The notes: generated by a model not told the origin, from the sequence alone. DNA of 53,787 nucleotides, filler included, from Sluysia triapertura (GCA_046118255.1; 3 parts of 3 records of this genome joined end to end with filler, not necessarily neighbours in it); one strand, 5' to 3'; counted from the whole stretch's first letter, positions 546 through 53,295 are shown. Translations and numbers: made by a program.

Positions 546-621
546 GTCGTAGTAATAATATAAATAAATAAATAACTTTATAAAATAATAATCTAATTAT
601 TATTTAATTTTTCTAAACTTT

Positions 622-1055
622 TTAAATTTTTTTATTTTTAATATTAAATTTTCCGCGATCTCCTATTGCACCAAACGAATTTTTATTATTGTTATTATTA
701 TTATTACATTGCTTAAAATTATCGGCATATGACTTTGGTTGTGGTTTGGATTTGATTATTCCATTACTCTTTGCATTTGAAATCCCCAAAGAAACCGCAG
801 CTGTGGCTGGTGTTATCGTTGATGCTGGTAACGCTGTTGACGACGTCGTAGGTGACATGTATGGTTGAGTTAGGTATGAATTATTATGATCTAATATAGT
901 TGTGCTATTGTTGTTATTGTTATTGTTACTAAAAATATTTATGTTGTAGACAGAAGTATGATAGTTAAATAATCGATTTTGATTTGTTGAATAATCAATG
1001 ACTGAATTAGAAGAATTGAATGCGTTTGTGTTAAATTGATCTGAAAAATTAAGCC
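622..1055 (-). CDS. Probable terminal exon of an unknown gene; N/S/T-rich low-complexity protein segment
   Basis: The frame of ORF 622..858 stays open upstream to a splice acceptor (ttttttaattacAG|GG, exon start 1055). It reads LNFSDQFNTNAFNSS...PYMSPTTSS...FGAIGDRGKFNIKNKKI*, and GC is higher than in the flanks. No domain recognised. Confidence 0.5.
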
Positions 1056-1843
1056 CTGTAATTAAAAAATGATTATTAATAATAATGTAAAATAAATTTT
1101 ATTTGACAACTATATTTCATTAGTCTAATGATTGGTAAATGACCTAACAAAATTTTGTTGTTATCATTAGAAGTTAGTTTTAAAAATAGAACTAGTGTGT
1201 TAAATTTCAATTTCAAAGATTTACCTTTATAAAACAAAAATATTCACATTATTTAAACATAGACATGTTCATATTTTTCGCTTTTATATATTCATAAGAG
1301 TTTATTATTAAATTCATCTACAATCTGATAATATTTTAAACTAATTTGTATTAAATTTTATAATAAAATGAATAATTACACAACATTTATGGTTTGTGTC
1401 ACATACACGATGCTTTATGTAAACGGTTTTTTAAACCATTCACGTAAACAATTATATTTTTATAATTCAAATAAAGTTTTACAGTGCGAAAAGAAATTTC
1501 TGTGCTGACCAACCCAATATCTTAGGGTTTAGTTTCAAAATATATACACCAAAATCACCTGTCACAATATTTCATAATTCATAATATTTTCAAACATTAC
1601 AAATATAAAATTACATAACATCAAATTCACATTTAATACCGAAAATCATCAATCACACACTTAAAAATTAGTCTAAAACATTTTAAATTAAATTAGTCCA
1701 ATATATCACACATTACATAACATCCTAACTATTTTCCATCAAAACCTTTTTTTATATTTTATTTCTTCAGATCCACTAAAACCATTTTTATACCTTAAAA
1801 CATTTTTTAATTCTTAATCTGACAACAGCAATCACATCCTAGT

Positions 1844-1864
1844 ATCTGCCAGTGGTTGACAGTT
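1844..1864. promoter_or_regulatory. CTGTCA-N5-TGACAG-type palindrome of family A
   Basis: CTGCCA-GTGGT-TGACAG here. Equivalents at 26351-26371, 42280-42296 and 42330-42350, plus an N4 variant at 26293-26310. Always upstream of the cargo ORF. Confidence 0.55.
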
Positions 1865-2245
1865 AATTAAACAAAACTGTATCAATAGTAATTAATGTTA
1901 ACTGTTAACAGCTGGATAATAAAAATTGTATTCTAAGCTATTATCTTATCTCTCGTTTTGGTTGCTCATTGAACATCACAACAATGTTAGAATTAATTTT
2001 TATTGATGATTCACCTTTTGAATAATTGTAAGTGGCATATTTATTTTTATAATTGAATATTTGGTGTATCAATCATATGAACGAACGTATACTAATGTTT
2101 TAACTCATAAAAATATAGTTGATTAATTTTAATAGGCAATTTTAGAAATAGTAGTATATCAAGAATCAGAAATAAACACTTAAAATTAGAAGAATAAATC
2201 ACTGAAAATTTATAGTACTGACAAAAGTATAAATCTTTTTCTATA

Positions 2246-3576
2246 ATGATAACAGCCGTACCTAAACTTTCAGATAATATTTCTAAATTAAAGTGGTAAA
2301 AACCGGTTAAAATTCAACAACATGCTATTTCATTATTGCTGGAACATAAAGATGTTATTGATTTATCTGTAACTGACAGCAAAAAACTACTCGTTATTGT
2401 ATTCAAGTAATTCAACAATATTTGGATAATGATCAGCCATTCATGTACCTAATGATTTTAATTCTCTCAGTAATTACTCAGTAATGCAAGAGTATTGTGA
2501 GATTTTAAAAATGAATGAAAGATTAAATTTGAAAAGAATGCGTTTGACTGGAGATATAGATATCACTGATCAATCAACAGAATTTAGTATTTCTGATATT
2601 CACATTATATTAGCTACTTCTGGTCGAATTTTATTGATACTTCATCACACTAGTCAAATTAAAGAAATTTTTTATTTTATTCGATACTTGCTGTTGACGA
2701 GGCAGATAAAATGATGCGTAATGAATTAGATGAAGAGATCGAAAGAATTTTACGAATATTAAATAAGAAAAGGAAAGAGAGAAATAAAAAGATATTCAAA
2801 CAATTCAAATTCACTCAACAATATGTTATAGTGATGCTAAAGCGAAGTATAGAATTATGTTTTATGATTCTCAACTTGTTGATGTCACATTAAAAAGCGA
2901 TATTCCAACACAGTTGAAATGTTAAGCTTTGACCATATCAAATCATACTGAAGATAAAGTTGCTCTTAAAATAATATGCGAAACATATATACCTAAAATT
3001 TTAGACTTTGTTAATGTTTACCCTGTCATATGGTCCTATGAATCCATTATAAACAAAATGAATATTAAAGATTTTCCAGCAGTATACCGAGAGTACTAAT
3101 GCCTCGCCGAAAATGCAGCAAAAACGTGAGCTTTCCCGAATCAAGTAATACACATGATATATTCCTTCACCGGTTTACTAACTGAGTACTGGATTTAGAA
3201 GATATTTTTATGAATTTCAATCTCAATGTTCCAAAAAAAGGTTGATATCTATCGTCATAGAATTGGGTATAATTCTACAAACTTTAATGAACGTTACGAA
3301 ACGTCTCTATGTCTGCATATGGCAACGCAAAAAGAAAAATGCACAAAATATGGTGCAAAATGCGTGTACCTCCACTCAATCAATGAATTCGAAGAGTTCG
3401 AAATCGATCCAGCAATTCGGATGACACACTACAGTAGAATAAATTACTTATTGGCAGATCTCAATAAATTTTCTTCGACATCACATCCCAATATAAAAGC
3501 TATCAAAACTGCTATCAACAATTCTACGACCAGATTTTCTTCTAATAACAATAAAGTAAACATTCATTATAATTAG
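2246..3576 (+). pseudogene. Decayed DEAD-box RNA helicase (DDX47/Rrp3-like) fused to a C-terminal CCCH zinc finger
   Basis: Read across stops and frameshifts: Q motif W*KPVKIQQHAI, motif I remnant SVTDS(K)KT, LTGDIDITDQS, Ib HIILATSGRI, II AVDEADKMM (GACGAGGCAGAT 2696-2707), VI NVPKK-VDIYRHRIG. Then YETSLC-x9-C-x6-C-x3-H (3295-3375). Confidence 0.8.
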
Positions 3577-4387
3577 AATGATGATATTTTAATTATATAT
3601 TTCTATTTGGTTAAAGAAACTGGATCTCGAAGAACGTGGCATATTTTGAAATTAACTATGATGAACATTTTTAAATTAATCATTATAAATAAAATTAGGT
3701 CTTCAATTTTGTTCTTTTGTAATGTGTTAAATTTTAGAATAATTTTATTCAATAATTAAAAAGTAAACATAATGTTTCTCAATATAACAAATTTTTATGA
3801 AATAAATAAATTGTTAAAATTCTTGAATTTCATAAGGCAACCAACCTTAAACCATCACAATTTCAAAGGATCAAATGAAAGATTTTTGGGAAAGTGATAA
3901 CAATAATTAAAGTTTTGGTTTAATGTTTTTGTTTCTAGATGTAAAATGATTTCTATATGTACTTTTATATATTTGTTACTTTTGTGTTTTCCAAAGACAA
4001 ACATATACTATTTGTCTTAGTTTCGATTGACAAGGTTTCCTAAAGAACCTATTTTCTTTGTAAATTCAACTTATAAATCAAACCATACAATTGCTTGAAG
4101 ATTTAGGAGTCTTTATATTTGTAACTGATCATTACCGATATTTTCTTTACAAATATCCTAGATTTTGGTAATATTAATCTAAATAAGCATGATGAAAAAA
4201 TGTTCAATGAATGTTACATCATTTTAAGATTATATTGTTTAATTATAACAAAGAAAGCGTTTAAATATAAATTATTATTATTTTTACATATTGATACTAA
4301 TAAAATTAGGGATCATTAACCCAATAATTTAAAAAACTCCATGAATCTATAAGTGAACACTATAAACTTATATAAATCCACTGTCAT

Positions 4388-5350
4388 TGTAGTGAGTTAA
4401 AACCCACAAAGATACATTCCCAAAAAATTGAAACACGTAAACTTCTACATATCATGAACAATAAATATTCATTTACTATTACATCCTCACATTCTCACAC
4501 ACTTATACACTCTTACATCTCAATAATCTCATTTACACGACCTAAATGTATATACTATAATCTTTATTTACATCAACCTAAATTAAACTTAAAATTTATT
4601 CTTGTTATTGTTATTACACAATCTATCTTGGTAATAGTTTCACACATTTAGAATGTTGTATCACAGAAATTGCCCTACGTGTTCTGGACGTTTTATAAAT
4701 CTAATTTTACTATTTGAGTTTCATTAAATTTAACAATTATGTAATTAAACGTATTTAGTGTAATATTAATTTTTTTCTATTGAATTCGTTTAGAGTGAAA
4801 AATCTGATTAAGTATACTATAAGTATAGTTTACAATATTATACATAATAAATCACAAAACGTAGTATAAATAGATTATTTCAAATATGCAACATAAGTAA
4901 AAGTGTATCATTTTATGTAAATTATTACTTTATTAAAGCTACTAATAGATGAAAGTTATTAAAAGTTTAAAGCTACTCTTTTCGTAATTATTAATAGCTG
5001 AAATATTAATATTGGAATGTAAGTCTATCCAAATCAGTTATTATTTATTAAGTATTAATAAATAAATCACGAAGTATTGAAAGTTTATAAAAGATTTAAA
5101 ATAAGAAAAATCAACTTAAATTTTTTAGATCAATGTGTTAAACTTGTTAATAAAACTTATTGTTATCATCTATAGTCTTATCTTTCGAAAATTTTCATTA
5201 AAATGTGCAATCGCTTCTATCGTTAGATCAGGACAAAAGACTCAACATTTTAATTGTGAATATTTGAATTTTAATAAAACCAATTTAAGCATTCTAACAA
5301 CCACTATAATATTGTTTATTAACAACGAAATAGCAGCTACATGACTCACG
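4388..5350 (+). mobile_element. Family B LTR-like element, 5' part
   Basis: Starts TGTAGTGAGTTAAAACCC followed by a G-poor arm, matching TGTAGTGAACTTAAACCC at 18369 and TGCAGTGAACTCTAAATC at 52306. The 3' end is not resolved. Confidence 0.5.
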
Positions 5351-6599
5351 AGATCGAATTATCCTGGTTTGGTAAATAAATAATTCATTTTCGTAAAATC
5401 ACCAACTTGATTATTCATCATTTCATTTTTACTTTAATGCGTTTATTATTATTTAAATTATTATTATTATTATTTGAATTTAATTCAATTTATTGCTATA
5501 TTAACTTTATATTCAAAAATTCAGTACAGTAAAATAAAATTTAATCTCAATTATATTTTCTATAATGATAATATAATCAAAAGATTACGATAATGGAATC
5601 TAAAACTAATCTTACAACTATCATTATCATTAATAAAAGCACGATATTCAAAATAACGAAAAATTATGAATTGTTATTATTGTAAATAAACTAACTAAAC
5701 TACATGTACTATACGAACTAATAAACTATCTAAACTACATGTACTATATATAAATTATTATGTATAGTTAGTGTGTAAAAAACTAATTAGTATAGTAATT
5801 TTAGCGATTAAATTTTAACATTAAATCTCTTTTAATTGTCAACTAATTTGTAGAATTAATTTTAATTTTTAAAGAAATTATTAAAATTTAAAGAAATTAT
5901 TAGGAATTATTATCTAAAAGTAAGTATAATTTAATAATCTAATAATCTAAATTATTATTTAAATTTAAAAGTGAATTTTAAAACATTTTTATTTTGTTTG
6001 AGTTTTGACCTTCAAGGTTGAAACTCACAGTATAAAGAGGTAACATAAACTTTCACACGCAATATTATTATAAATTTTGTCATTTACAATTTTGATTATA
6101 AATTTTTAATTCACAATTTTTGGCACTTTTGAAAAACGAAAATAATTTATCTTTATCCCGGATATTGGACAAGAACTTAATCGTTGCAGAACACTTTTAT
6201 AACTATGAATTTCATTTGATCTTGAAGAATCCAGAATCTTGTGATTCTATATTTTTGCAAAATAATAGTGAAAATATCGTTAGTTAATTTTTAGTAAGAT
6301 TTAGTAACATTTATTTTGCCAAGTAAACTATACGTAAAATAATATTTAACACATATTTTCACTAACCGATAAAACGATAGCAAAGTAAAATCCTTTAAAA
6401 AAATTTTATAACGACAGATATTCATTTATGGAAAATCCTATAACTTTTATATCATTTTATATTCATTGTTTTATTTATTATTGTATCAATTTTTGTTCAA
6501 TAAACCTTTAAGTTAAAACGGTGATTTTTGATTTTTAAATTTTGTTAATATTCATACGATTCTATTTAATTCGGAACCGGAGAAAATTACAAATTAAAA

Positions 6600-7110
6600 T
6601 CATTTATAAGAATTTTGGTAATTATTTAACTCTAAAATCTTAAGCAATTAAACGAAGTTAAGAAATCAAGATAATATAATAAGAGAACCTCCAGTAGTTA
6701 TAAATTATCCTTCTAAGAAAAATCCAACGGCTAACCCTAACAGCTAAGACTAGATACGTTGATGGACTCACCATAAACATTCTTTTATTCGTAAGACTAA
6801 GTTAAGAAATATAAATCAGTATTAAATAATTAACTCCTAATTAGTAACACAATAAGCTGCCCAATAAAGAAATTAAAAAGGAAGTTTAAAATAAAAATTG
6901 AAAGGATATTTCAAATTATTTAACTTTCAATTTTATTCAATAATAAAATTTATCTAAAAATTCAATTTTACTCAATAATAATCAAAATAACAATTAGTTG
7001 GGGAATTTCCTAAATTACCTAAAATTTAAATTCTTTTCAAAAAAATTAAGTAAAAGTAAAACTGTTGCCAAAATATCATGAATATTTACCAGACAGGTCG
7101 GTATTAGGCT
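6600..7110 (-). repeat. Family D repeat fragment with decayed minus-strand ORF
   Basis: 6710-6810 aligns with 12903-13000 (ggctaaccctaac...tacgttgatggactcac vs ggctagccctaac...tacgttggtggattcac). Confidence 0.55.
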
Positions 7111-7159
7111 GTTATTCACGTGATTGTAATTTGTATCATGTTGTACTAGTTGTGTTGAA

Positions 7160-7900
7160 AATTTTGGAACCTTTTATACTTTCGCACTATCCAATCACTC
7201 TTCAGTTTTATAATGAAAAATTCTCTTACACAAATCATTAGAAACTCCTTTGAGTATTCAATCTACAAAGACAGATTTGACAATTACATGGTATGGCGTA
7301 TCAAAACATAAAAATTTGATTAATGGTCAAAATTATTTTCTTCTATTTTAATTAAATTATTTCCCACATTAAAGTAACATTCATTAATATTGTCAATATA
7401 AATGAAAATAATGAATGTAACTTTAGTTTTTATAATTCAATTAATTTTTAGTTTTGCTCACCCCATTTCTAATGGAAAAGGATTAAGTTTCTTATTATCA
7501 AACAGACCATTCTATAAAGATTTAAAACCCATTTCTAGATTCTCCTCTTTCGGAGCAATCACCTCATATTCAATTCATTATTTTTTCATCATTCTAAATA
7601 TGGAACATTCAAGAATTAAGAATCAATTAAAATTTGATTTTCTCAATATTAAAACTTTTCTCGCATTAATTCAGTAAAATCATAACTTCATCAAAAGATC
7701 TTTTAAAAACACAAACAAACACAATATTCCGCATTTATGAAAGGTACTTTTTTTTAATTAAGTTAATTAAGATTTTAATTAATTAACCGATCTTTAGACT
7801 TAATCTTATTTTATGCTTAAAAGTTGTATTAAGGTTCTAAGGTTGTTTAGTACTTTAATAGGCACTCAGAAAGCTCTAGATGATTCATTATTTTGATTTC
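7160..7900 (+). pseudogene. Family C repeat: decayed gene with signal-peptide-like N-terminus and an intron
   Basis: ORF 7402..7677 starts MKIMNVTLVFIIQLIFSFA; GT-AG intron 7744-7797. The reverse complement aligns with 19560-20013, 39800-40480 and 50500-51280. Confidence 0.6.
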
Positions 7901-8926
7901 TTTCTCTACTTATTTATGTTAATTATTAGTGTATCCAATTTATCATATAGAATGCATTTTAAATTTAGATAATGAACCCACTGCTGAATCGAGTATCTTA
8001 CAACTTTTTTTAAGAAGGATGGCATAATGAGTGATGAAGGATACTGATTATTTTTATATAAGATCTTCCATGTGCTACAAAAGTAATGTCAAATACTTGC
8101 CTCTAAACACCATCATTAAAATCATAAGAACTCTCAGATTTTAATAAATTAAGAGCATTGACGCTGTGACATGCTATATTAAATCTGAAGTACATTTTTT
8201 GCATTTTGTACATAGTATTTTGAAAAAGCTCCTTTAGATGCTTATTAATTAAGAAGTTCACTATAAACCTGATTGGTTCACACCTTTTTTATCAGTTTCT
8301 TCCTTTGGTAATGTTTTAAAGTACAACTCATTATTGTCTTCAGCAGTTCTACTAAGAATCTTTATTTCAAGTATCACTTTACCTAATTTTATCTTATTTA
8401 GTATTCTAATGAAATAGATTTTAACTAAGTTTAAAGCCGCTTAAGGCCTGGCAAAACATATAGACTTGAATTTCCAGGGATGATTATATCAAAATTAAAA
8501 CAGTCTAAAACAAAATATAAAACAAAGTAATCATCATTTTTTATAACATGCATATGCCAATTAAATCTAACATAAAACTGGAACAATAATTTTGTAATTG
8601 TAAATGGGAAATGTATGTTTTTAGTTCTGTGTCATTTGGATGACTATTTACGATACATGCTTTATTGGAACTTAGAGTGACTAAGGAACGATTGGATCTC
8701 GACGGTTTAAATGCGTTAATATAGCTATATAGGACACAATCAGGTTTCATCATATTAATAATGGTGTCTTAAGTACAGCGAGTCATCATCAATTAACCTT
8801 CTAGTTTTACGGGAATCATTGGTTTGATTACGAATCATTGAATTAAAATCTTAACTCAATTTTATTAATTATATCATTTTTATTTCACAATTATCATCTC
8901 ATAATTATATAAGCATAAAACAATAA

Positions 8927-16949: not shown

Positions 16950-17435
16950 ATGAATGAAACTTTAAATCTATTTGGTAACAAAAGTTCTCTTACGCGATAT
17001 TTATGGATTATACATTTAATTGTATTTTTGATGGTTATATGTTTCTTTGTTGGTTCATATTTACATTATCGTTGGAAATCACGAAAGAAGCAACAAGCAA
17101 CATTTTATCAATTCTTAAAATCACGCCAAAGTCGTAATGTATTCAACAGAATTATTAATGATAATATACCAGTAACAAGTTATGCACCTAATCTTGACTC
17201 TGGAGCTATCTCTGAATCATCTATTAATATACAGAGTAATATAAGAAGCGGTAGTGCATTCGTAGCTGATAAAGATGCTTTTTTTGATGATAAAAATAAA
17301 GTGTTTATATCCAACTTAAATTATAAAAATCTTAATCAAAATAACAAACCTTACAATATTGCAGGATGCAGTGGTTTTAAGCCAAAAATTTCAATGTTCG
17401 TTGGAAAATCGTTTCAAATAAAATCAATGGAATAA
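16950..17435 (+). CDS. Single-pass membrane protein of unknown function, 161 aa
   Basis: Longest ORF in the track, intact. AAATG start context, N-terminal NET sequon, hydrophobic segment LWIIHLIVFLMVICFFVGSYL followed by basic RWKSRKK. Confidence 0.6.
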   Translation: MNETLNLFGNKSSLTRYLWIIHLIVFLMVICFFVGSYLHYRWKSRKKQQATFYQFLKSRQSRNVFNRIINDNIPVTSYAPNLDSGAISESSINIQSNIRSGSAFVADKDAFFDDKNKVFISNLNYKNLNQNNKPYNIAGCSGFKPKISMFVGKSFQIKSME

Positions 17436-18368: not shown

Positions 18369-20013
18369 TGTAGTGAACTTAAACCCTAAACATAACAATC
18401 ACAAACAAACTTCTACTCAAAGTAAAACAATTCCTAGAAACTCAACAAATTACATAACATAACAGAGTTATTCGCAATTCAACAAATTTTTTACAATAAT
18501 TGGAAGATCTCATGTAACACCTTATGTTAAAGAATTACATTCGTAACCAATAAAAGCAAGAATAGAATTCAAAATCATGACAATAATTTACAAATTCTTA
18601 CATTTTACGGAAATCCTGGATATCTTTTAGAAATAATACGAAAATGGGAAACCAAGATGAATATTTCATTGAGGCATGATAATCTATACAGAATCCACAG
18701 TGATAACAAGCTAGCTGATAGGTTGTATACTGTTTATGTCTCAAAAATATACAACCAATTATCAGAGAATGTCAAATTATTGGAAGAAATGAGAGCAATA
18801 TAAATTAATATATTATTATTAACAATCATAACAATGATAATAGTACACACATTAACATTTACACTTTGCTAGTGTTTTTCTTAAAATGACCACTAAATAA
18901 TTAGATTATAATGACAAGGTTTGCCTACAGTTAACGAATTTATGCTTAACACGATGTTCCTGTAGGATTTAGTTATATTTAAACAAGGGTCTGTAAAACC
19001 TAATTTTAGAATTTTTCTACTAAAAATATTAGCTGTAATTTGAATTCTTATAATAGTTTCTTCCAATTACTATTATTCTTAATCTGTCTCTCAAATGAAT
19101 TCAAAGAAAATTATTTTTACTTTCTTATCGTGATTGATCTGGGAAAATATTGTTGGGATTAGAAGATGAGTAAGAGACACATATAAACACAAATTTAAGG
19201 ATGAATCGATACGAAGTGATAGACTGAACATTATAAACATTGTAGGAATAACAATCATGAAAGTAAAAATACCTATAATAATGTTAACAGCTGAAGAATA
19301 CCTTAAAGTTTCAAAGACCGATATAAGGTGTCAAGACTTTGTGAAAGCTTGAAACGGACTTGGAGGTATTAGAGTACCTTTGAGTTTGTGAACAGTGAGA
19401 TAATCTGAGACCCTATTAACCTTTAGGTATTCTTGATAAGAATCTTTGTTCTTCGAGTTAAAATCTTTACAATCTTTAAAATAGTTGAGAAATAAAATCG
19501 TTGTTATTGGTATTAAGAATAAATTTAGTATAATAATAATTAACATGAAGAAGTAGAAAAAGGAATATAAGCGGTGAAGTTGAAAACATCTTGAGCCTCC
19601 TGAATAGCTTTATAACCTCAATAAAACCTTTAAACATAGAATAAGATTCACTCTAAGTAGATTACGTACGTTTTTGTGAATAACTTTTGAATTTTTTTTC
19701 TGTTGAATTTGAAACTGTGTATGTATTTGTTTTGAAAAGACCTTTCGATGAAGGTATGGTTGAACCGAGTTCATGCAAAGAAGCCTTAATATTGAGCAAA
19801 GTCAAATATTAATTAATTTTTAATTATGGAATGTTGAATTTTTTATACTTAGAGTGATGCAAATGTAATGAATGGAGTATGAGATGATTTCTATGAAAGA
19901 GGAGAATCTATAAGTGAACTCGAAATGTTTTTAAAGTGGTTCGTTTGAGAATAAGAACCTTAAAACATTTTTCATTAGAAAATTTGGTGTGAAAAATAGA
20001 AAATTAATTAAAT
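18369..20013 (+). mobile_element. Family B LTR-like element with a nested L2 fragment and an antisense family C gene; truncated by the gap
   Basis: TGTAGTGAACTTAAACCC start and G-poor arm that resumes after 18820. Minus-strand hydrophobic ORF pieces (19331..19546) and family C homology at 19560-20013. Confidence 0.55.
18470..18820 (+). mobile_element. L2-clade LINE, 3' end of ORF2
   Basis: HVTPYVKELHS*PIKARIEFKIMTIIYKFL from 18511 resembles L2 HITPxLxxLHWLPVxxRIxFK. Also IYNQLSENVKLL and a (TAT)n tail. Confidence 0.75.
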
Positions 20014-20113
20014 NNNNNNNNNNNNNNNNNNNNNNNNNNNNNNNNNNNNNNNNNNNNTTAATTAATTAANNNNNNNNNNNNNNNNNNNNNNNNNNNNNNN
20101 NNNNNNNNNNNNN
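20014..20113. other. Assembly gap with synthetic TTAATTAATTAA six-frame-stop linker
   Basis: 44 N + TTAATTAATTAA + 44 N; identical at 35199-35298. Confidence 0.95.
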
Positions 20114-20750: not shown

Positions 20751-22056
20751 TATAGAACACATTATTAAAAATGTTTTAGTTGTGATTTATATTTTTTAAT
20801 TTCAAACTTTACTCACAACCATTATGTACTTCCAAAGTTAGACCACTAAAAACATTATAATAATAATTATTATTATTACATTGTAAGTTAAAAGTCGGAA
20901 AGATAAGATACGTAAATCCTTCCAATTTTATTAAATTATTTTAATAAAACCTTTTAGTTTTATTGAGAGGATTTATAATTGTATTTAATTTTTTCTTTGA
21001 TACTTCAAATAGTGACCATGACATAAGCATAATATATTTTCTAAGGAAATTAATCGCTTTTAGAAAACTCATTAAGTATACTATTGTTTTCGGTTTCATT
21101 TTTCGTGATTTGCATATTACCGTTCCAAAATTTTCTTTGATTTAAGGGCATAATTAAATAATAGTCTGGACGTTTTCTACGAATCATTTCATTTACGAAA
21201 CCAAATAGTCTATATAGCCAATCAAAATATCTGGACACGTTTTTGTTTATTGATTGCATTACGAGATATTTAAACGATGTACAAACCAAACAAAAACATT
21301 ACACATTCTATTACTATTCTAGCTGAATCCATTTAAAATACTTTTTAAGTTCACATACGACATTGTATGAATTAATTTTTTGTTTGAGGTAAACATAATT
21401 ATTTAATACTTCATTTAAACTTTTAAAATAACCAATAATTCATTAACCTTTTCCTTTCATTTAGGTATCTCCTAAGAATATTAAAAGGATGCATTTTATT
21501 AACTCTTACAATTTTTAAATTAAGTTTTAAATTAAGTTTAAATAAAGCAAATATTCATTCAGATCATACATTGTATTGTTTGACTTCGTACTCATTGTCT
21601 AGATCAACTATCGTTTTCACTCTTTCTTTAATTTTATTATCATTTGTTTTCCTAGTTTCTAAAAATGAGTTAGATTAACATTTTATTACCCTCTAAACAT
21701 TTTCTTTTTCATATAAATCTAAAGTTAATATTTTAAAAATTGCATTCAAAGGTATCGTTTTCAATTCAAAATACAAATCCTTACCAAATTTATTTGTAAC
21801 TACATAACACCAATGTTAACTTGAATTTAACCAATTTTCAATAATCAATTTTAGATTATTTTGATTTGTACTTTTGGTATTGCTTAAGAATTAGAGTTAC
21901 CCAAATTGTGTAATAAGTACTTATCAATAAAGACTGCATACTGAATCCCAGTCATTTATCTACTTAGTTGAATTAGAAAATCAATGTCAAAAAACATGTG
22001 AAATGCAAATAAGTGTACTAAAAATTAATAATCTTTAATTTCTTTAATATACTAAC

Positions 22057-22314
22057 TTCTTTTACTGTTTTAGGGGGTACTAATTGAGCTCCCATTTCCC
22101 ACATTTTCTTGCGTAAATTTAAAATTGAGAGACAATCTTGTGACATATGTGTAATTGTAGTTTTATCTTCCATTGCCCAAAGCAAACAACTTAATTTTCG
22201 ACCATTTCCTAAAGTTTCAGATTCACAAATAACATTTATTTCTCGACGACATGCTGCATATAACTGAGGATCTGCATGAACATCAGCAAATCCTTCTTTC
22301 AATACATTAAGTAT
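22057..22314 (-). CDS. GLG1: Golgi glycoprotein 1 (cysteine-rich FGF receptor/ESL-1) exon, last Cys-rich repeat
   Basis: ttgtAG|ILNVLKEGFADVHADPQLYAAC...GNGRKLSCLL...DC...RKKMW...VPPKTVKE|GTtagt, phase 0. Resembles vertebrate VLNMLKESKADIFVDPVLHTAC...GRGRQMSCL...RIEMW. Confidence 0.9.
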
Positions 22315-24373
22315 CTACAATAAATATATATATTTATTAATCAGAACGTGAGCAAGCGCAATAAAAAAAACTTAAGGATTTATTACTTACAAAATTCTAA
22401 AAATGTTACTTTAAAAATATCTTTTTTGATTAAGCAAAATCAAGAATTTGATGGTGATTAAAAAATTTAAAACAATTACTTAATAATTATGAACGTCAAA
22501 TTTCTTTTATCTAAAATTTTCTATCAATTAAATTGAGTTATAAATATTTGAACTCAAATAATAACAAATAAACGTTACTTTGAGTCAAGCTAAATTTAAT
22601 TTCTTAAATCGTAGATGATTAGTTCTGAACTCATCTCTGCCTGTAGAGACAGAAGTGCAAAGTCTAACATTATATCAGATTTCCAAATATATTTTTCTAA
22701 ATCCGAAAAGTAGCTATTTACGTATGCGAAAATTTATACTATGAAAATTTAAACAATGAGATTATCATTATCCGAAAAATAGGACTTTGAAGTAATATTT
22801 CAAAGCGTAAATAATTCGTTTGACCATGTTTTTACTGATTTTAACACTAAAATAATCTAACCTTCAAAATTGCTAAGTTTATTTATTAAAAAATTATGCT
22901 AAATTATGTTTGGTATAGACTTATCGAGTAAATTTGAAATAACAAATTTCTAAATTCAAGAATGTTAACGTGGGTTACTGAGAAATTTTGGTTTAATTCC
23001 TAAATTGATAATTAAAAAATGGGTGAAACGAAGAAAGAATATTCCGACATTAGAAAGAAAAAAGTAGACTTTTATAAGGATTCATTTAAAATCAATAAAT
23101 CAAACATTAAAAATATTCGTTCGGATTCAAGTTCGAAGGTCTTTCATCATTATAGAAAAATTTAAAATAGCGAAATTTTAAATTTTCATTTACTAAGTTC
23201 GTTTTTAAATATATTTCATTATTTGTAGCAAAATCTATCACATTTTTAATAACTAATTTCAAAGCAGAAGGAAATATTTTTATGGAAATTTTATGGAAAA
23301 TATCGTGTAAATTTTAAAAAGCTTTAAAATGATTTTTAGTAGCTTTAAAGAGATTTTCAATCCAATATTTTTCATTTATTACTAATATCATTTGTTGATT
23401 ACTATTTTCAACGGGAGATTATATAGTAATTAAAATGCTTAATAAACTTAAAAAACGGTAATTTGAAAATGGAATATTTCAAAAAAATACATTTAAAAGA
23501 CAATAAAAGAAAAATAAGAAAGTAGAATAGGCAAAACATCATAGAAATAAAGACAAAAATTAATAACGGACATAAAAACAGTTATATTGTAAAATATAAT
23601 AAAGACGAATGTAAATGTAAATATATCATATAAAAACCATTATATAAAAAATCACAAATCAAGCGGATAAAAATGTAGCCTAAACTATATTATAGAATGT
23701 GATAACTATTATATAGAAGTAACAATATTATTTATTGTTAAACCAAATAAATTTTCTATTAAAGCTTTATTTGTATTTCTACGAGAATATCAGACTCAAA
23801 TTCGCATTGCATTTAGCATTTGCATCTCTGACAATCTAGAGACAAATCAAGCGCATAACGTTAACACTTAAACAGTTTGTAATTTGTAACGAATTAAAAA
23901 TATAAGATCCTAACTTTATAAATTGAAATCGGATGAATAAAAATAATTAAACATTAAATTCTTTAATAAATTTTTAATAAATGAATAATAAATGTTTAAT
24001 AATGAATAAACTTACATTATTATAATATTGCCAATTATTTGTAGCTTTTCCAGTGATATTTTAAATAACAATAAACTGGTTGGAAGGTATTTTAATTTCA
24101 TGCAATAAATCGTTTTAATGAATTTGAGAGGTAATTATTATCTTCCGAATAAAGATCTACAGTTCTAATGTCATTATTGTAATGTATTTTTAAATTTTAA
24201 AAACATGAATTACGATTTTAAGATTATTTTATAAGAACATATTCAATTTGGTCTATGTAATTGTCATATTTAATCAATAATAGTCATATTCAGTCTTTCA
24301 TTAAGCTGAATTTGAAAGGTATCGAAATAATTTAATGATTTCTCAACACGATAATTGGTATAAAAATGATTAC

Positions 24374-24562
24374 CTTAGATGCACATTCTTTATTATTAAT
24401 ATTTCTATCTAAATAGTTTCTTTTTAGACATTCTAATACTTCCGTGGGTGTGTGACGATTGTCATGTTCTAAATATCTGAGACATAAATTGTTAATAGAA
24501 TCATGGCATTTCTCTTGAAGGAATGGGTCCAAATGAAAATCTCTATTAGAGTCTACTATAAT
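24374..24562 (-). CDS. GLG1: Golgi glycoprotein 1 exon, penultimate Cys-rich repeat
   Basis: tttAG|IIVDSNRDFHLDPFLQEKCHDSINNLC...EVLECLKRN...KECASK|GTaatc, 189 bp, phase 0. Splices in frame to 22314. Confidence 0.9.
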
Positions 24563-25593
24563 CTAAATAAAAAATATCAATGTGCTGTTATTTTAAAACC
24601 TTTTATTACATCTTATGAATAACACTCATTCCATAGTTCAATTTTCATCTTAGCGTGACTTTAAAGTTTAAAAATTGATATAATATAATTACAACTAATA
24701 CATTCATATAAATGTAAATTTAACTAAAATGACTAAAATAACTAAAATAGTATAGTTATTATAGAATAACTAGAATTTATTAATATCGAAATTTATAATA
24801 TAGTAAAATTATAATATAGTGTGAAATTAGAATTACTGACTATAGTATATTAACTATAGTATTTATTAATAATGGAATAATTATTGTGTGATTAAATTTA
24901 TAGTATAGTAAATAAATATTGGAATTATTGAAATCGAAATTATGGAAATAAATAGTATTGGAATTTATTATATATAAGGACCAACATTACCACAATTATT
25001 ATCAGTTTTATATTGAAAATACTGAAAACTTACCACAATTATTATCGGATTTGTAACAATTCCATTGATGACTATTGTTAGGTTTTTAATTATATTTGAT
25101 TTAATTGAGGAGAAAGAGAATTCAACAATACAAATTCAACAAATTAATATAAAATAATACTTAAAATCACCATTAAATTACGAGTGGTATCCTTAACTTT
25201 GTTAAACATATTTTATTATATAGTTTTGTGTGTATCTTTTTATTCCGTTTAAGTTCAGGAAAGGATAAAGTTTGAAATTTTAAATTTATAAAATTTCGTA
25301 AATTTCCATCTTGTACATCTGAGGTGAGCAGAGACTTCAACCTTAAGATAAACTTTGACAATTTTAAAGAATAATTTAAAAAATATAATAGAAAGTCAGT
25401 AAATAACAAAGTAAAACTAAAGATCAGATCGCGAGCCCTTACACTCTCTTCAACATTCTCTTCATCTTCACTTTCAGAATCCGATAAAAATTTGCAGCAC
25501 CTTCATGCATAACATTCAAACATTACCATGCTAACTTTCTTCATTGTCTGAAAAATTACTTCAATATAGAATTTTGCTTGCCTGAACTCACTT

Positions 25594-27642
25594 TGTGGTG
25601 GCCAACCTTAGTACTTAAAATTTTAATTTAATTCAGCATAATAAAAATTACATTCTTGTAATATTCCACCTTTTATTTCTTCAAAAATCATTAAAAATGT
25701 AAATATATCAAAACATTTTAAGTTCACAATTTGATAACATTAAAATCCTTCATAACATCGAAAATCATTAAATTTACATTTTAAATATATTTCAAAACAA
25801 TAATAATAATCTAAATGGAATTTCTTTTACAATCTCTTTTTATAATTTTTATTCTTTATATTTTTATGATCATATGCATACCTCAACAACCTCAAGTTTC
25901 ATTATTTTAGCATTGCGCAACAATTAAAAGATTTATAAAGTATTTGAGGAATTAGAAGAATTAGAAATTGCAAGAAGCATACTTGCTCAACAGGATCCAA
26001 GTAATAAATAATTAAAGAACATATAGAACAAATTTTCAAGACAATAAATATTTATAAAAGTCACATAAACAAACATAGTAAGAAAAAGAACATGTTCAGA
26101 AAGAATTTCTTTTCAAGAAAAAGAAGTTATAAGAGTTTTATGTTACTTTCATGTATTTTTATTTAATTATTTTTAGTATTTTATATTATTTTATCATATT
26201 ATTATTATTATCATTATTATTATTATTAATTATTATGATTATTAACTATTCACATTATTATTACAATCATTGTTGGCCAGTTAATTATATTAGCTGTCAA
26301 TTTGGACAGCAGTTCAATTGTTTAATTTTATACAATTAAATTGGTTATACAACTGTCATTGGTTGACAGTTTCATTATTAAAAAGATATATGATACACAG
26401 CAGCAGATGAATCTCTTTTATTGGCCATCCAATTGTATTCATTTTTATCATCATTTTTAATTAGTCGCATCATTAGTTTAACTACAATTAATACTTAGTT
26501 AATTTTATGAGTTAAAAAATAAAACTCTGCCGTAACTGTTTGATTTTAAAGACTTTGGAGGCAAAATATTGGAACTTTCAGCTTATATTATTATTCTTTA
26601 TTAAAACAAACAAGTCTTAAATGGGTAATCATGATTTTAAAACAGAACTGGAACTTTTAATTAAACCAGTCAAAACTTTATTCAATATGAAAGGATTGAA
26701 TTAGTTATTGATACTCGTGTATACGATCGTAAAAAAGAAAGAAATATTTCATCATTTAGATTTATATAAAGACAGTATGATTAATGTATCAGGATAGAAG
26801 TATTATGTGAAATGAAACTTTGTCAGTACAATAGACATTTATTCTACTCATTTAATGAATATTAATTATGAATAAAAGACTTGATAAAAACGCAATGTGA
26901 AAGAATTTAAAATGAGTGACATCAAAAATAAAGAATGTGTTAAAGAAGTAAATGCTATGATCGAACATATTGATGTATCATCCAACACAATATCAAATAA
27001 ATATCTGAAATGCGATTTTGATCAAGATCATTACAAAACCGCACTATGTTTGTTTGGTACAATTAATTTAGATATATGCCTCAAATATGGCCGTATATGT
27101 CCGTATGCTTACAACGTACCAGAACTATTTTATCATTCATTCAATAACGCTAACTCTAACATCAACTTGGATCGCATTAACAAGCTATTTGCTTCATTAG
27201 AAATTAATTCAATCAATTCAAATCCTCAAATTAATAACGACATGATTCGTGGTAATCCTAGTAGACATTCAACTATGCTAATGACGATTCTAAATTAGAA
27301 GTAAATTTTGCTTTTATTGAATTTTTAGTTCATAATGTTTCTGTATTCTTACTAAGATTATACAAATTTATGCAACTTGTAGTATATCAAAATATAAGAA
27401 TACAAACATCTTTATTCAATTTATATCATAATTAATAGATGTTTAGAATCTTTGGTATTTTCCATTTCGAAAGAATTGTAATAAATGAAAACTTTGGTCA
27501 TTATTTTGTAAATTTTTACATATTACAATTAATAAAAAGAAATAATAGAGTTTTAACTTGCATTTTAATAAAAACTAATAAAATTATTTATAATTTAATT
27601 GCATTCAATATATTAACATTTCATAATTCTCCAAACACTTCA
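25594..27642 (+). mobile_element. Family A copy 2
   Basis: Starts TGTGGTGGCCAACC after CACTT and ends ...CCAAACACTTCA, with CACTT at 27641-27645 overlapping the terminal CA. Shares the 5' arm, palindromes and zinc-finger ORF. Confidence 0.75.
26560..27298 (+). pseudogene. Decayed cargo ORF: unknown N-terminal domain plus CCCH-type finger (H>Y)
   Basis: HYKTALC-x9-C-LKYGRI-C-PYA-Y-NVPEL (27032-27112), followed by RINKLFASL, which parallels RINYLLADL in copy 1. The upstream part is broken by stops. Confidence 0.7.
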
Positions 27643-27899
27643 CTTATTTCTCGAATTTTTTCCAATATCTGTCTCACTGACCATGCAGACATATTCCGGA
27701 TTGCAGTAAAACACAAGGCCAATGGAATGTAACGGAAACTGTCTCTTACAAGAACTTGATTTCTTATAGGCTCTGATCTTTACTTTCTGACTCTAAATGT
27801 ATAATTTCATTCATATTTCATTTAGAACTATGCCTGTAAATTTCCGATAAGAGTCCATTCTGTTTATACATTACGTTCTATGGATCCGATCGGGTTGTA

Positions 27900-28990
27900 A
27901 AAGTGTTCACTCCGAAACCAAACCTACATGTAAGGTTCAGATAAATAAAACATCCGTCTGACTGTAAGTAGAATTTGGCATACAACATAAGCTTAATACA
28001 GAGAAGGTAAAATATGTGCCGGTGTTTCCTCAAAAAAGAAAAATAAATACAAAAGAAAACGAAAAGATTATTCTGACAATTTAGCTCAAATAAAGTCGTT
28101 GAGGAACGATTCGCAGTCTTTCTGTCGTAATTAATATTCAAAATCAACTTTTTTGATACATTTAAACAGCGAAACTATTTAAAGCGAATATCTTCTACAG
28201 TTAAACCTACTTTAACAGATAAAATAAATGGGAAAGTTTACAGTTTTGCTTGTCAATGGTAAATTTTACCAGTAACGGAGATTTTCTTTTTGATCATTTA
28301 TGACTACGTTCATATTGACGAAAAATGGTTTTTTCTTAGTAAAATTAAATGCTCTTATTACCTAATGTTAAACGAAGAAACTGAAAAAGCAAAAGATTTA
28401 TTACTAAAGTAATGTATCATGGTTCGACCACGCTATGATATACATTGAAAGCATTATTTTGACGGTAAAATTTGAATATGCCCTCGCACATCAAGAACAG
28501 GATCAAAGAAATTCTAAGATCAAACCTAAAGAAACAAAATAACGAAAATGTGGAATATATTACAGGTGTACATCGTAAAATGATTATAGAAAATGTTATT
28601 CCAGCAATTAAATCAAAATTTCCGAAAACCTATAAAAATAAAACGATTTACGATTTTTCTGAAGAATATGAAGATATTGTTAATGTAGGTTCTGCTGATG
28701 GTTGGAATATTAGATTTAAGTCACGACGACCAAAGAGTCCTGATTTAAATGTACTTGGATTTGGGGTTTTTTTACTCAATATAATCGTCGCAACATAAGT
28801 GATTTTATTCAAAACCATTTAATAAATTAGAAGGAAATACTCTTTATAACGTTTTTACCACATTACAAATATGTATGGAACGAATTATGCTAACGGGTAG
28901 AGAAAATTCTTATTTAAAATTCCTCATAAATAAGGCAAATATTAGCTGAAAAATATTTATGTTCCGAAGAGACGTACGATAGGGCCAAAT
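27900..28990 (+). mobile_element. DD39D-type Tc1/mariner transposase remnant
   Basis: YVHIDEKWFF (~28305-28334), KRFITKVM, RPRYD, FDGKI, MIIENVIPAIKSKFP, GWNIRF...PKSPDLNVLGFG and NVFTTLQICM; frameshifted. Confidence 0.85.
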
Positions 28991-35198: not shown

Positions 35199-35298
35199 NN
35201 NNNNNNNNNNNNNNNNNNNNNNNNNNNNNNNNNNNNNNNNNNTTAATTAATTAANNNNNNNNNNNNNNNNNNNNNNNNNNNNNNNNNNNNNNNNNNNN
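35199..35298. other. Assembly gap with synthetic linker
   Basis: 44 N + TTAATTAATTAA + 44 N. Confidence 0.95.
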
Positions 35299-41134: not shown

Positions 41135-44100
41135 ATGTTAAGAGAAGAAGCAAGAAGAAGAGCAGAAAAATTTGTTACAGTTCGTAAAAAAGTAAGCCAC
41201 TATTTTTTATATTTTTTATAATTTTATAATTATAAAATTCAAAGTTATCATTCAATAATAATAATAATAATTATAATAATAATATTTCTTTATTTAGATT
41301 GAAATTACTTCAAAATCATTTACACAAATGATTTCATTTTTAGACATATGGAAGCCAGTCAACAAGGCCATTAGTGAATATTATGATTCAGGTAAAATTT
41401 AATTAATTTTTCTGAAATACAATTTATTGTTTGATATTATTTAAAATAATTTTTGTACAAAATATTAAAATTATGCAGAAGATTTAATTAAATTATAGTG
41501 GCCAACTTTTTCATTCAAAATTAAAATTATTATTTTACACGAAATGTCACATCCACTAACATCTTAGATTTTACCTTTCAGATCCATTAAATCCTTATTT
41601 TTATTTTTTCCAAAATAGTTAAATTCACAACCTCATAACGTTACAAACAAACGTACTTTCAAAACCATTAACGTACATCTAAGTTTCATTCAAAACATTT
41701 TAATTCACAATTTTACAACATTAGAATCACAATTTACATTTCTAATTGTCAAATAGTTATTTCGAAATTAATCCAAAACATTTCAATTACACAATCCATC
41801 AACACTTAATCTTTAGCATCTGTGGAAAACATTAAATCCACATTTTAAAATCACTTTAAAACATAATCAAAAATACGATTTCTTTAACATCTTCGCAAAA
41901 ACTCATACTTAAAACCATTCTAAACATTCGGATTCAAATAAAATTTTATTTAAATTAATTGTATATATTCTATTAAAGGAAGATTAAGTTTACACAAAGA
42001 AATAAAGATGTATGCAATTTTATTTATTTATATGTTAAAGAAAAGAATTTTATTTTCAAAGAATTATAAGCTCATTTGATGAATAAAGAGAATAAAGTTT
42101 ACGTATTATTATTATAATTATAATTATTACTATTATTATTTTGTCTGTTCTATTTAATATAATTATTATCATTATTTTAATCATTTTATTATTATCATCT
42201 TCATTTGATTATTATTATTATTAGTCTAACTATTTATATTAATCCATTAAATCATTTTCATTATCGTATTGATTGAAACCTGTCATCAGTCGACAGTTTT
42301 TTTATTTAATTTCGCGTAGATAATTTTGTAATTGTCAACTAATGACAGTTGCTTAGCCTATTAAATCACTCGTAGTTGTTATTAAGTACAGTTCTGTGTT
42401 GTTGTGCCTTAGATTGTGATTCAGTTTTAGTGTGTGTCATTGTTGTTTTGTATTGTTGTGACTTTCAACAAATAGTTCTTAATGCAGACGACCAATAAAA
42501 ATGTAAAAAGAAGCACCGCAAAACCTAAATAATAAGTAAAAAATTTCTAACAAATTTTAATTAATGTTTAAAGAATAAAAAAATTCTGACTTTATCTTAA
42601 TATTAAGAATAAATTTAATAATGGATGAATTAATTTTATTATCATTTGCTAAATTAGAATTAGACGATCGTTCAAATAAAGCTTGTATAAAGTTGTCTGA
42701 CAATTATAATATATTAGTAATGCATGGAAGAATTATGAATTTTATAAGATAAGGAAATACCATTAGATTCAAGGCTAGATATATTGATCATGAAAAGGAA
42801 TCACTTACAGTTTCTAATACTATATTAAATTTTAAATCAATTATGAAAATTGATAAAGGATTTCAAGAATGGGATATTGTAACTCCCAATGAAACGTCAT
42901 TTGGATTAAAAAATGATCTTAATTTTTTATTCAATATCATTAATCATGTAGATTCGTATCAAAATTTCAATAAAATCAATATAAGCGAATCCATCTTTGG
43001 TTATAAGTACGTATCTCATTTCTCCAAATTTTAGTATTGAACAAGATTTAATTGTAAAGTATCTACAATCTCTAATGAATATAATGATGATAAAAATAAA
43101 CAAAGTATGTCCGATCTGATCGACCAGGGGATCAATCATTTTAAACCGTCTATGTCTAATCTAAGTGGAATTTCTTGTATGGATAAAATTTCCATCTCAG
43201 TTAAGCGAATCCGACATTGTCGTTATTTCCTTAATATCTTTGAATCAAATTATCATGACTCTTGAGTGATCTACTCATTTCAGTACAAAATAATGCACCT
43301 GATCATAGATTGCAGGCTAATAGAATTCTCACTGGAACTACGAGTAATATTGAACCTGGTAGTCGGTTTAACAAGTCAAAAGTTAAAGTAATTTTAAATA
43401 TTTATCTTACATTGACATATTGTTTTTTTATTTATTATTGAGAGATATAAGTAATCTAAGTGACAAACATATAAAATTAACAATTTGTAGTATATTTGTT
43501 TATTTCAATTCAATGTATAATAAATTTAGGTCTTTTTATTTTATTACTTTATTCAACAAAAGAGCAAATGACGAAATTTTTAAATTTAATCTCGTTAGTT
43601 TGTGTTATAATTGGAAAAAATATAAATTTAATATAATTAATGTTAATTTCTTTAAAACAGTTTACAATAGTGCTATAATCATAAAACATTTAATCCAAAT
43701 TTACCTAAATAAATAACACAATAAGTAAAAACCATTAAATACTTAAACAATAAGTAAAACTATAATCAAATGTGCATTTTGTTTCGTCTTTAATTCTATG
43801 AACCAAATGAATATCTCACATTTATCGTTATCGCAATGTATATATTAAAATGCAATTACCAATACCAATTCAGTAATAATTGAATATCAAATGTGCATCG
43901 TTTATTTGAACGTTAAGTAATTTATGAATGTGAAGTAATTTACTGAAATGTTATGGAAGCAACAAATGTAAATGCTTGTACTCAATAATCAAATTCTAAC
44001 ATAAAAGTAAAACAATCAAAAATCGTACTAAATCAATTTATAAAAAATTAATTAAAAAGTTTAAAAACTATTTTACAACACTTCAAATTTATCTAGAATC

Positions 44101-53223: not shown

Positions 53224-53295
53224 TGGACTGACCGGGGATCGAACTCTGGACCTCTCCCTGCGTAGTTCGATGCTCTACCACTGAGCTATCAGCCC
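53224..53295 (-). pseudogene. tRNA-like sequence (Ala/Cys-like body, broken anticodon stem)
   Basis: GGGCTGA TA GCTC AGTGGTA GAGC A TCGAA CTACGCA GGGAG AGGTC CAGAG TTCGATC CCCGG TCAGTCC A. Acceptor and D stems pair and the A and B boxes are intact; the anticodon stem does not pair and the T stem has two mismatches. Confidence 0.75.

What the first reader, a model, noticed from the sequence alone, without database searches (positions are those of the whole stretch)
1496..3864. Perfect 5-bp TSD and TG...CA ends delimit copy 1 as a single insertion
Seen: ATTTC|TGTGCTGA...CCATCACA|ATTTC, where CCATCACA is an imperfect inverted repeat of the family start TGTGGTGG. There is no internal direct repeat, so the whole 2359 bp resembles one long solo LTR containing a gene. 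Copies 2 and 3 end in ACACTTCA with only a 3-bp clean match (CTT, AAT), or a 5-bp match overlapping the CA, so TSD length is ambiguous there.
Basis: partly seen in the sequence, partly recalled or inferred. Interest (0 to 1): 0.7.

Follow-up and report, generated by a model that had tools for sequence, protein, structure and literature searches.

The report
Gene-carrying solo-LTR-like insertion
This is a 2.4-kb piece of repeated, mobile DNA in an AT-rich, probably animal, genome that looks like the lone left-over end repeat of a retrotransposon but, unusually, holds a decayed gene made of an RNA-helicase fragment and a zinc finger.

Summary
The junctions are as described: ATTTC|TGTGCTGA (1501) … CCATCACA (3859)|ATTTC, 2359 bp, no terminal repeat. 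That pattern alone is common here (88 such pairs in the window). Independent evidence makes the unit real: contigs of one public run pile up from the bin holding 1501 to the bin holding 3859 (summed depth 368-4783 in 8 of 9 bins; 10-158 in the three bins before, 26 in the bin after), and two relatives in the window share the start motif, a C-rich 5' module and a CTGTCA-N5-TGACAG palindrome. Only 16 of 5117 control TG starts have an equally good end in such a slot. One correction: the flanking repeat is 6 bp (AATTTC) if it takes the last A; copies 2 and 3 fit 6/6 and 5/6, so duplication length is unresolved. The cargo is a broken DDX47-like DEAD-box half followed by a CCCH zinc finger; copy 2 has a related finger, copy 3 an unrelated frame. 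Best reading (0.6): a long solo LTR bearing an accessory gene, as MMTV's LTR does. No empty site, two-LTR parent or integrase was found, so a non-autonomous DNA element remains open.

The parts
1496..1500 (.). left copy of the flanking direct repeat ATTTC (AATTTC from 1495 in the 6-bp reading)
1501..3859 (.). the element (copy 1), 2359 bp, TG...CA, no terminal direct or long inverted repeat
1501..1514 (+). family start motif TGTGCTGACCAACC (12/14 to copy 2, which is 11/14 to copy 3); presumed integrase attachment end
   Evidence: function inferred
1501..1800 (+). C/A-rich, G-poor module (GC skew -0.54 and -0.82 in 150-bp bins); highest repeat depth; aligns colinearly with the 5' part of copy 2
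1757..1775 (.). conserved motif TTTTATTTCTTCAGATCCA: holds AATAAA on the - strand (1758-1763; same offset in copy 2) and also reads as a splice-acceptor-like string on +; core shared with copy 3 and a family-C repeat at 40170-40188
   Evidence: role inferred
1846..1862 (.). palindrome CTG(T/C)CA-N5-TGACAG, about 400 bp upstream of the cargo ATG; presumed promoter element
   Evidence: role inferred
2246..2890 (+). broken N-terminal half of a DEAD-box helicase, best match DDX47; stops and two frame changes; Walker A region degenerate, DEAD motif present, nothing recognisable beyond motif II
2857..3576 (+). downstream frame with stops in its first half, ending in a 116-aa open stretch with one CCCH zinc finger (3295-3384, TTP/Unkempt-like)
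3852..3859 (+). right end CCATCACA, imperfect inverted repeat of the start
3860..3864 (.). right copy of the flanking direct repeat ATTTC (from 3859 in the 6-bp reading)
25594..27642 (.). copy 2 (relative): same start motif, 5' module, palindromes at 26294 and 26353, CCCH ORF 26912-27298; right end at 27639-27642 depending on duplication length; splits a GC-richer stretch whose - strand frames are in phase
41494..44085 (.). copy 3 (relative): TATAGTGGCCAACT start, 5' module, palindromes at 42280 and 42332, a 255-codon frame with 4 stops (42621-43385) and no family match; right end at 44082-44085

Best explanation
1501-3859 is one old insertion of an abundant family, most likely a long solo LTR: an LTR retrotransposon integrated with a 5-6 bp target duplication, and recombination between its two LTRs removed gag-pol, leaving one LTR. 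This LTR is long because it includes an accessory gene with its own upstream motifs. In copy 1 that gene joins an intron-free piece of a DDX47-like host helicase to a CCCH zinc finger; the finger was kept by selection while the family diverged, and the N-terminal cargo varies between subfamilies. The product would be an RNA-binding protein (a helicase fragment that cannot unwind, plus a finger), plausibly acting on element RNA or on host RNA silencing. Shown: junctions, repeat character, family motifs, cargo homology, decay. Inferred: target duplication by an integrase, LTR origin, LTR-LTR recombination, retro-capture, protein role. Orientation is open; one fit is an LTR read on the - strand (AATAAA at 1763-1758, then about 250 G/T-rich bases to the end) with the gene antisense in U3.
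For: Repeat depth rises in bin 1422-1695 (4569 after 54) and falls after bin 3614-3887 (368 to 26), unique contigs having depth 13-18 (summed contig depth, not a copy number). The only CA+ATTTC within 9 kb downstream of 1501 lies at that fall; 16 of 5117 controls do as well. Ends fit LTR short inverted repeats of about 7 bp; copy 2's start equals the TGTGGYG motif listed for one Gypsy clade, copy 1 6/7 (PMC3601003 Table 3). No terminal inverted repeat beyond 8 bp among the 25 of 40 pairs shown, unlike Ginger DNA transposons (40-270 bp TIRs, PMC2836005). Family: 5' parts align above all 200 shuffles for copy 1/2 and 2/3; all 4 palindrome matches fall inside the three copies, 0.03 expected (motif picked after seeing it). 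Copy 2 splits in-phase frames of 44 and 29 then 109 codons. Cargo: DDX47 E=1.9e-7; 375 nt in the element against 357 nt in DDX47 between matched blocks leaves no room for an intron; CCCH E=3.4e-6 and 4.3e-5; copy 1/2 finger block identical at 32/41/26 of 69 codon positions, 15 of 23 shared residues with different codons (block chosen by protein similarity). An ORF inside an LTR has precedent in MMTV (PMC9412291); LTRs of 1.9-6.5 kb in Ogre and host-like domains in Burro (PMC6431247).
Against: No empty site among the 15 of 200 joints shown. No parent with two LTRs, and no RT, RNase H, integrase or gag match in 190 of 190 stop-free stretches of 48 aa or more; no genome was held to look further. 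Depth dips to 113 in bin 1970-2243, between the 5' module and the gene, as it would if two repeats were juxtaposed. The three 3' regions do not align (136, 160 and 8 of 200 shuffles reach the score), copy 1/3 5' alignment is reached by 10 of 200 shuffles, and nhmmer found no copy-to-copy match below E=0.1. No single duplication length gives CA ends in all three copies. The clade whose start motif matches has LTRs averaging 330 bp and 4-bp duplications. AATAAA is everywhere in this DNA (9 on +, 6 on - in copy 1), so the LTR anatomy is weak evidence.
Confidence: 0.6

Rival explanations
1. A complete non-autonomous cut-and-paste (Pack-type) DNA element with very short, imperfect TG...CA ends, moved by an integrase-like transposase encoded elsewhere and carrying captured gene pieces.
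For: Ends and cis motifs are conserved while cargo differs between copies; no parent LTR element seen; integrase-like DNA transposons have TGT ends and 4-5 bp duplications (PMC2836005). The start motif also resembles the end of a small inverted-repeat element at 38286 (hAT-like by recall).
Against: No terminal inverted repeat beyond 8 bp and no subterminal repeat array; the start motif has no reverse-strand partner in the window; described Ginger TIRs are 40-297 bp; the finger shows protein-level constraint, not passive carriage; intron-free helicase piece suits an RNA step.
Confidence: 0.2
2. The unit is a composite: a high-copy 5' repeat module next to a separate gene-bearing repeat, and the right-hand CA+ATTTC is coincidence.
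For: 88 look-alike pairs in the window; 8.9% of TG starts have CA plus a 5-bp repeat in such a slot; depth dips to 113 between the two parts; 3' regions of the copies do not align.
Against: The same order (start motif, module, palindrome, same-strand frame, CA-like end with a flanking repeat) recurs in three copies on three separate sequence pieces; copy 2's removal point falls between in-phase frames; 0.3% control rate with the inverted match.
Confidence: 0.13
3. A dispersed host gene family or processed pseudogene (DDX47-like plus CCCH) copied by another element's machinery, with family promoter DNA attached.
For: Intron-free host-like helicase piece; coding part is multi-copy.
Against: No poly(A) tail at either junction; upstream motifs 400-750 bp before the ATG travel with it; copies with different cargo share the same ends.
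Confidence: 0.07

Closest known systems
Solo LTRs of Gypsy/Metaviridae or BEL-Pao retrotransposons
   Same: TG...CA ends with about 7-bp imperfect inverted repeats, short flanking direct repeat, no internal terminal repeat, high copy number (PMC3601003 passages).
   Different: 2.0-2.6 kb long and holds a protein-coding frame; the animal Gypsy LTRs modelled in PMC3601003 average 174-695 bp; no parent element seen.
MMTV LTR with the sag/naf ORF in U3
   Same: A gene inside the LTR, with promoters in the LTR (PMC9412291 passages).
   Different: MMTV is a mammalian retrovirus with one dedicated gene; here an unidentified AT-rich eukaryote, host-like RNA-binding cargo that differs between subfamilies.
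Burro (planarian) and Ogre (plant) giant Gypsy elements
   Same: Long LTRs (Ogre 1.9-6.5 kb) and captured host-like domains and accessory ORFs (PMC6431247 section 7).
   Different: The accessory domains described there (BIR, BCL2, MATH, ankyrin, midasin-like) are in the internal region or polyprotein; that review has no occurrence of 'CCCH', 'DEAD' or 'solo'. The host here was not identified as a planarian.
Plant Retand/Grande/RIRE2 additional antisense ORFs
   Same: Conserved accessory ORFs with their own promoter near the 3' LTR (PMC7264820 first third; PMC11963269 passages).
   Different: Those ORFs lie between pol and the 3' LTR, not inside it, so solo LTRs do not carry them.
Ginger1/Ginger2-TDD DNA transposons
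   Same: TGT start, 4-5 bp duplication, 2.6-7 kb size range (PMC2836005 passages).
   Different: They have 40-297 bp TIRs and a transposase; neither is present here.

Membership tests
solo LTR | TG...CA termini with short imperfect inverted repeats | tested here: met
   copy 1 TGTG...CACA, 6/8; copies 2 and 3 end in CA only under a 3-bp duplication, and copy 3 starts TA
solo LTR | 4-6 bp target-site duplication | tested here: inconclusive
   flanking repeat 6/6, 6/6, 5/6 in the three copies, length 5 or 6 unresolved; not confirmed against an empty site
solo LTR | interspersed repeat whose homology stops at the termini | tested here: met
   depth rises and falls in the bins that hold 1501 and 3859; resolution 274 bp only
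solo LTR | same sequence occurs as the paired LTRs of a gag-pol element | not testable with these tools
   no genome held; no retroelement domain in the window
solo LTR | U3-R-U5 anatomy (promoter, poly(A) signal, GT-rich tract) | tested here: inconclusive
   - strand AATAAA at 1758-1763 followed by a G/T-rich tract, same offset in copy 2; AATAAA is frequent by chance; no RNA data
solo LTR | no primer-binding site or polypurine tract attached | tested here: inconclusive
   no TGG after either end on reading the flanks; host tRNA set not available
CsRN1 clade of Gypsy | 5' motif TGTGGYG | tested here: met
   copy 2 exact, copy 1 6/7
CsRN1 clade of Gypsy | 4-bp duplication, short LTRs (mean 330 bp), TGT...AAA/ATA ends | tested here: not met
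   2049-2592 bp units; 4-bp reading gives ends CACAA and CTTC
Ginger / TDD DNA transposon | 40-297 bp terminal inverted repeats | tested here: not met
Ginger / TDD DNA transposon | integrase-like transposase | tested here: not met
   no Pfam match in the element's stop-free stretches or read-through frames on +
Helitron (recalled: no duplication, TC...CTRR ends) | no target duplication; TC start, CTRR end | tested here: not met
   flanking repeats in all three copies, TG/TA starts; defining features recalled
retrozyme / Penelope-like pseudo-LTR / tRNA-bearing LTR | hammerhead ribozyme or small-RNA gene inside | tested here: not met
   Rfam at gathering score: one tRNA-like hit at 53224-53295, none in the copies; ARAGORN none
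active DEAD-box helicase (DDX47/Rrp3) | two RecA domains with intact motifs I-VI | tested here: not met
   match covers only DDX47 chain residues 56-99 and 175-220; Walker A degenerate; frame broken
CCCH zinc finger (TTP/Unkempt-like) | lead-in plus C-x8-C-x5/6-C-x3-H | tested here: inconclusive
   pattern present in copy 1, last His replaced in copy 2; Pfam E=3.4e-6 and 4.3e-5 but below the curated cut-off (27.3 and 23.8 vs 31.1 bits); TTP E=0.0014

The most novel reading that the evidence does not exclude
An abundant invertebrate retroelement lineage whose 2-2.6 kb LTRs each hold a self-contained, exchangeable accessory gene for RNA-binding proteins (helicase fragment, CCCH finger), so that every solo LTR leaves a promoter-plus-gene cassette in the host genome; or, bolder, units that move on their own with only 7-bp integrase ends and no paired-LTR parent. 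Either would be a route for scattering many copies of candidate RNA-silencing modulators through a genome.
Probability: 0.3. Interest if true: 0.7.

Novelty: new variant of a known kind. Interest (0 to 1): 0.42.

Why it matters
Solo LTRs are usually non-coding left-overs. If this family's LTRs carry a selected gene, each recombination remnant is a gene cassette: three relatives lie in 54 kb here, so the genome may hold very many. Host-like RNA-binding cargo (DDX47 fragment, CCCH finger) suggests an element-versus-host RNA conflict and would be mis-annotated as a large host gene family. Accessory ORFs in LTR elements are known, and a gene inside an LTR is known from MMTV; my searches listed no paper describing CCCH or DEAD-box genes inside invertebrate solo LTRs, but Repbase and Grohme et al. 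2018 with its supplements could not be seen and may describe this.

Tried and rejected
No whole genome was held, so copies and parents could not be surveyed. Sequencing runs: one holder, contigs only, 0.80 of words, possibly the assembly's source; no RNA holder listed. No empty-site joint in the 15 of 200 joints shown and no loose end at 1501 or 3859 in the 6 of 1690 shown; contigs drop rare variants, so this is a blank, not a negative. Relatives of the CCCH part: none in the word-indexed protein search (3 candidates), none at E<=0.001 among 1.84 billion representatives, none in metagenome or viral contigs; ESM Atlas unavailable. Host identification through TOM20 and GLG1-like exons returned nothing; the planarian idea is unverified. 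Single-sequence structure models of copy 1's 3' frame and copy 3's frame were unusable (mean pLDDT 36.5 and 33.9), so no fold search was run; an OB-fold guess for the N-terminal cargo of copies 2 and 3 got no support from PDB sequences or Pfam. nhmmer did not link the three copies. No ribozyme or tRNA inside. Flanks of copies 1 and 3 show no in-phase frames. Rejected: Ginger (no TIRs), CsRN1 membership (size, duplication), Helitron (duplication present), active helicase. Earlier scan notes: nothing found. Grohme et al. 2018 not held. The bacterial promoter scan is irrelevant to this eukaryote.

Full report
Setting. The window is 23-24% G+C, has few long ORFs and holds spliced host exons (GLG1-like cysteine-rich repeats at 22021-22314 and 24335-24562, TOM20 at 36907-37369), so it is from an AT-rich eukaryote, probably an animal; the taxon was not identified. 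It consists of three pieces joined at N-spacers (20014-20113, 35199-35298), and the three copies discussed lie on separate pieces. No genome was held.

Observation. The junctions are exactly as written: ATTTC at 1496-1500, TGTGCTGA from 1501, CCATCACA to 3859, ATTTC at 3860-3864. The 2359-bp unit has no terminal direct repeat and no DNA match elsewhere in the window by blastn; its longest internal direct repeat is 29 nt at 76%, and none of the 25 longest of 40 inverted pairs is terminal. No single length gives CA ends in all three: 5 bp does so for copy 1, 3 bp for copies 2 and 3; 6 bp fits all flanks best but leaves ends CAC, CACT, CACT.

Is it more than chance? Not from the pattern alone: 88 TG..CA pairs with a 5-bp flanking repeat and at least 6/8 inverted match occur on the + strand. 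Independent evidence comes from laying the contigs of the one run that holds this DNA on 600-8800 at 80% likeness. Summed depth is 10, 158 and 54 in the three bins before the element, 4569 and 4783 in 1422-1969, 113 in 1970-2243, 872, 1832, 902, 578, 565 and 368 in 2244-3887, and 26 in 3888-4161; long unique contigs have depth 13-18. This is a repeat signal, not a copy number, and the C/A-rich 5' part may attract short look-alikes. The only CA+ATTTC within 9 kb downstream of 1501 falls at the drop. Of 5117 TG starts, 456 have CA plus their 5-bp repeat in the same 548-bp slot and 16 also have the inverted match. Contigs 1011-1598 and 3712-5442 cross the two junctions without a difference, though the run may be the assembly's source. 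No empty-site joint was among the 15 of 200 shown.

The family. A 14-bp start motif has 4 matches at up to 3 mismatches (0.21 expected): the three copies and a small inverted-repeat element at 38286. CTGTCA-N5-TGACAG has 4 matches at up to 1 mismatch, all in the three copies (0.03 expected; the motif was chosen after inspection). All three begin with a G-poor, C-rich module; copy 1/2 and 2/3 align above all 200 shuffles, copy 1/3 is reached by 10 of 200, and the 3' regions do not align (136, 160, 8 of 200). nhmmer, which discounts composition, found no link below E=0.1. So these are distant subfamilies, not near copies. Copy 2 offers an internal empty-site test: its flanks are richer in G+C (0.31, 0.35) than the element (0.23), and - strand frames of 44 codons on one side and 29 then 109 on the other are in phase across the site (one of 18 strand-phase-copy combinations examined). 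Copies 1 and 3 give nothing of the kind.

The cargo. From 2246 copy 1 encodes the N-terminal half of a DEAD-box helicase; the best solved relative is DDX47 (E=1.9e-7, next 3.5e-4). It is broken by stops and frame changes, its Walker A region is degenerate and nothing beyond motif II is recognisable. The matched blocks lie 375 nt apart against 357 nt in DDX47, leaving no room for an intron, which suits capture from mRNA (inference; the host gene was not seen). A further frame from 2857 ends in a CCCH finger (Pfam zf-CCCH_UNK E=3.4e-6, below its cut-off; tristetraprolin E=0.0014). Copy 2 has a related finger (33% over 69 aa, E=1.3e-4) behind a different N-terminus. Codon-position identity is 32/41/26 of 69 and 15 of 23 shared residues use different codons, the pattern of protein-level constraint, with the caveat that the block was picked by protein similarity. 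Copy 3 has a 255-codon frame with four stops and no match. No relatives were found in public protein or contig collections, and folds were unusable.

How it most likely works. Ends of TG...CA with about 7-bp imperfect inverted repeats and a 5-6 bp flanking repeat are what an LTR-type integrase leaves (PMC3601003, passages and Table 3). With no long TIRs and no second LTR, the plainest history is integration of a retrotransposon followed by LTR-LTR recombination, leaving one LTR that is long because it contains an accessory gene with its own upstream palindromes (0.6). The product would bind RNA without unwinding it, perhaps acting on element RNA or host silencing; that is inference only. Orientation is open. 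On the - strand an AATAAA at 1763-1758, at the same offset in copy 2, is followed by about 250 G/T-rich bases to the end, the order described for animal LTRs, which would put the gene antisense in U3; but AATAAA is frequent here and the same string reads as a splice acceptor on +. Rivals: a complete non-autonomous DNA element with minimal ends (0.2), a chance composite of two repeats, for which the depth dip at 1970-2243 speaks (0.13), and a dispersed host pseudogene family (0.07). What is missing for the LTR reading is the parent: no RT, integrase or gag match in 190 of 190 stop-free stretches of 48 aa or more.

Comparison. It works like a solo LTR, but membership is unproven. An ORF in an LTR is known from MMTV (PMC9412291, passages); long LTRs and captured host-like domains from Ogre and Burro (PMC6431247, passages and section 7); accessory antisense ORFs outside the LTR from plant elements (PMC7264820, first third; PMC11963269, passages) and extra ORFs from rotifer elements (PMC5408684, listing and passages); helicase domains in insect retrotransposons are viral SF1, not DEAD-box (PMC6338049, passages). 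The start motif matches the CsRN1 clade, whose short LTRs and 4-bp duplications do not fit (PMC3601003, PMC2582038, passages). Ginger elements need 40-297 bp TIRs (PMC2836005, passages). Passages of PMC8532177, PMC11410931, PMC12471100, PMC13238120 and PMC1560396 added nothing on genes inside LTRs. Searches listed no paper on CCCH or DEAD-box genes inside invertebrate solo LTRs; Grohme et al. 2018, its supplements and Repbase were not seen. Helitron and hAT end patterns and BEL-Pao duplication lengths are recalled.

Verdict. A real, decayed insertion with about the stated ends; duplication 5 or 6 bp; probably a gene-bearing solo LTR of an abundant, diverged family. The boundary observation itself is ordinary; the selected, exchangeable RNA-binding cargo inside an LTR-like unit is the part worth following. 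New variant of a known kind; interest 0.42.

Noticed in passing
window 7139-7950 (+), 19521-20013 (-), 39724-40444 (-), 50431-51256 (-): A second, far more abundant repeat family (nhmmer E 1e-39 to 1e-32; summed depth 3e4-3e5 at 7176-7997), also C/A-rich at its 5' end; the 40170-40188 copy shares the TCAGATCCA motif with copies 1 and 3 and one has the palindrome at 50613. It may be a related LTR-like family.
   Followed up: partly
window 4388, 18369, 52306: Three C/A-rich stretches starting TG(T/C)AGTGA, a third LTR-like start; ends and duplications not found.
   Followed up: partly
window 25176-25593 and 27646-27792 (-): Copy 2 interrupts a GC-richer, decayed coding stretch with an acidic run; frames on both sides are in phase; no Pfam match.
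   Followed up: partly
window 38285-38587: Small element with inverted ends CAGTGGTGTCAAA and an internal short hairpin copy, hAT-MITE-like by recall; its end resembles the family start motif.
   Followed up: no
window 28200-28950 (+): Decayed Tc1/mariner-type transposase remnant with a SPDLN motif (identity by recall, no Pfam hit at 0.001).
   Followed up: no
window 622-1098 (-): Asn-rich exon-like frame with a splice-acceptor-like site near 1056; copy 1 lies about 440 bp upstream on that strand, perhaps in an intron.
   Followed up: no
window 41345-41390 and from 44597 (+): Exon-like pieces with splice signals on both sides of copy 3, suggesting it sits in an intron of a + strand gene.
   Followed up: no
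window 16950-17435 (+): Intact 161-aa ORF with one N-terminal hydrophobic helix and no firm family match (GAPT E=0.0008, below cut-off).
   Followed up: no
window 20014-20113 and 35199-35298: N44-TTAATTAATTAA-N44 spacers: the window joins three separate sequence pieces.
   Followed up: yes
window 50971-51090 and 53224-53295 (-): A 24-bp tandem repeat of four to five units inside a family-C copy; a tRNA-like sequence found by Rfam (36 bits) but not ARAGORN, perhaps a SINE.
   Followed up: no
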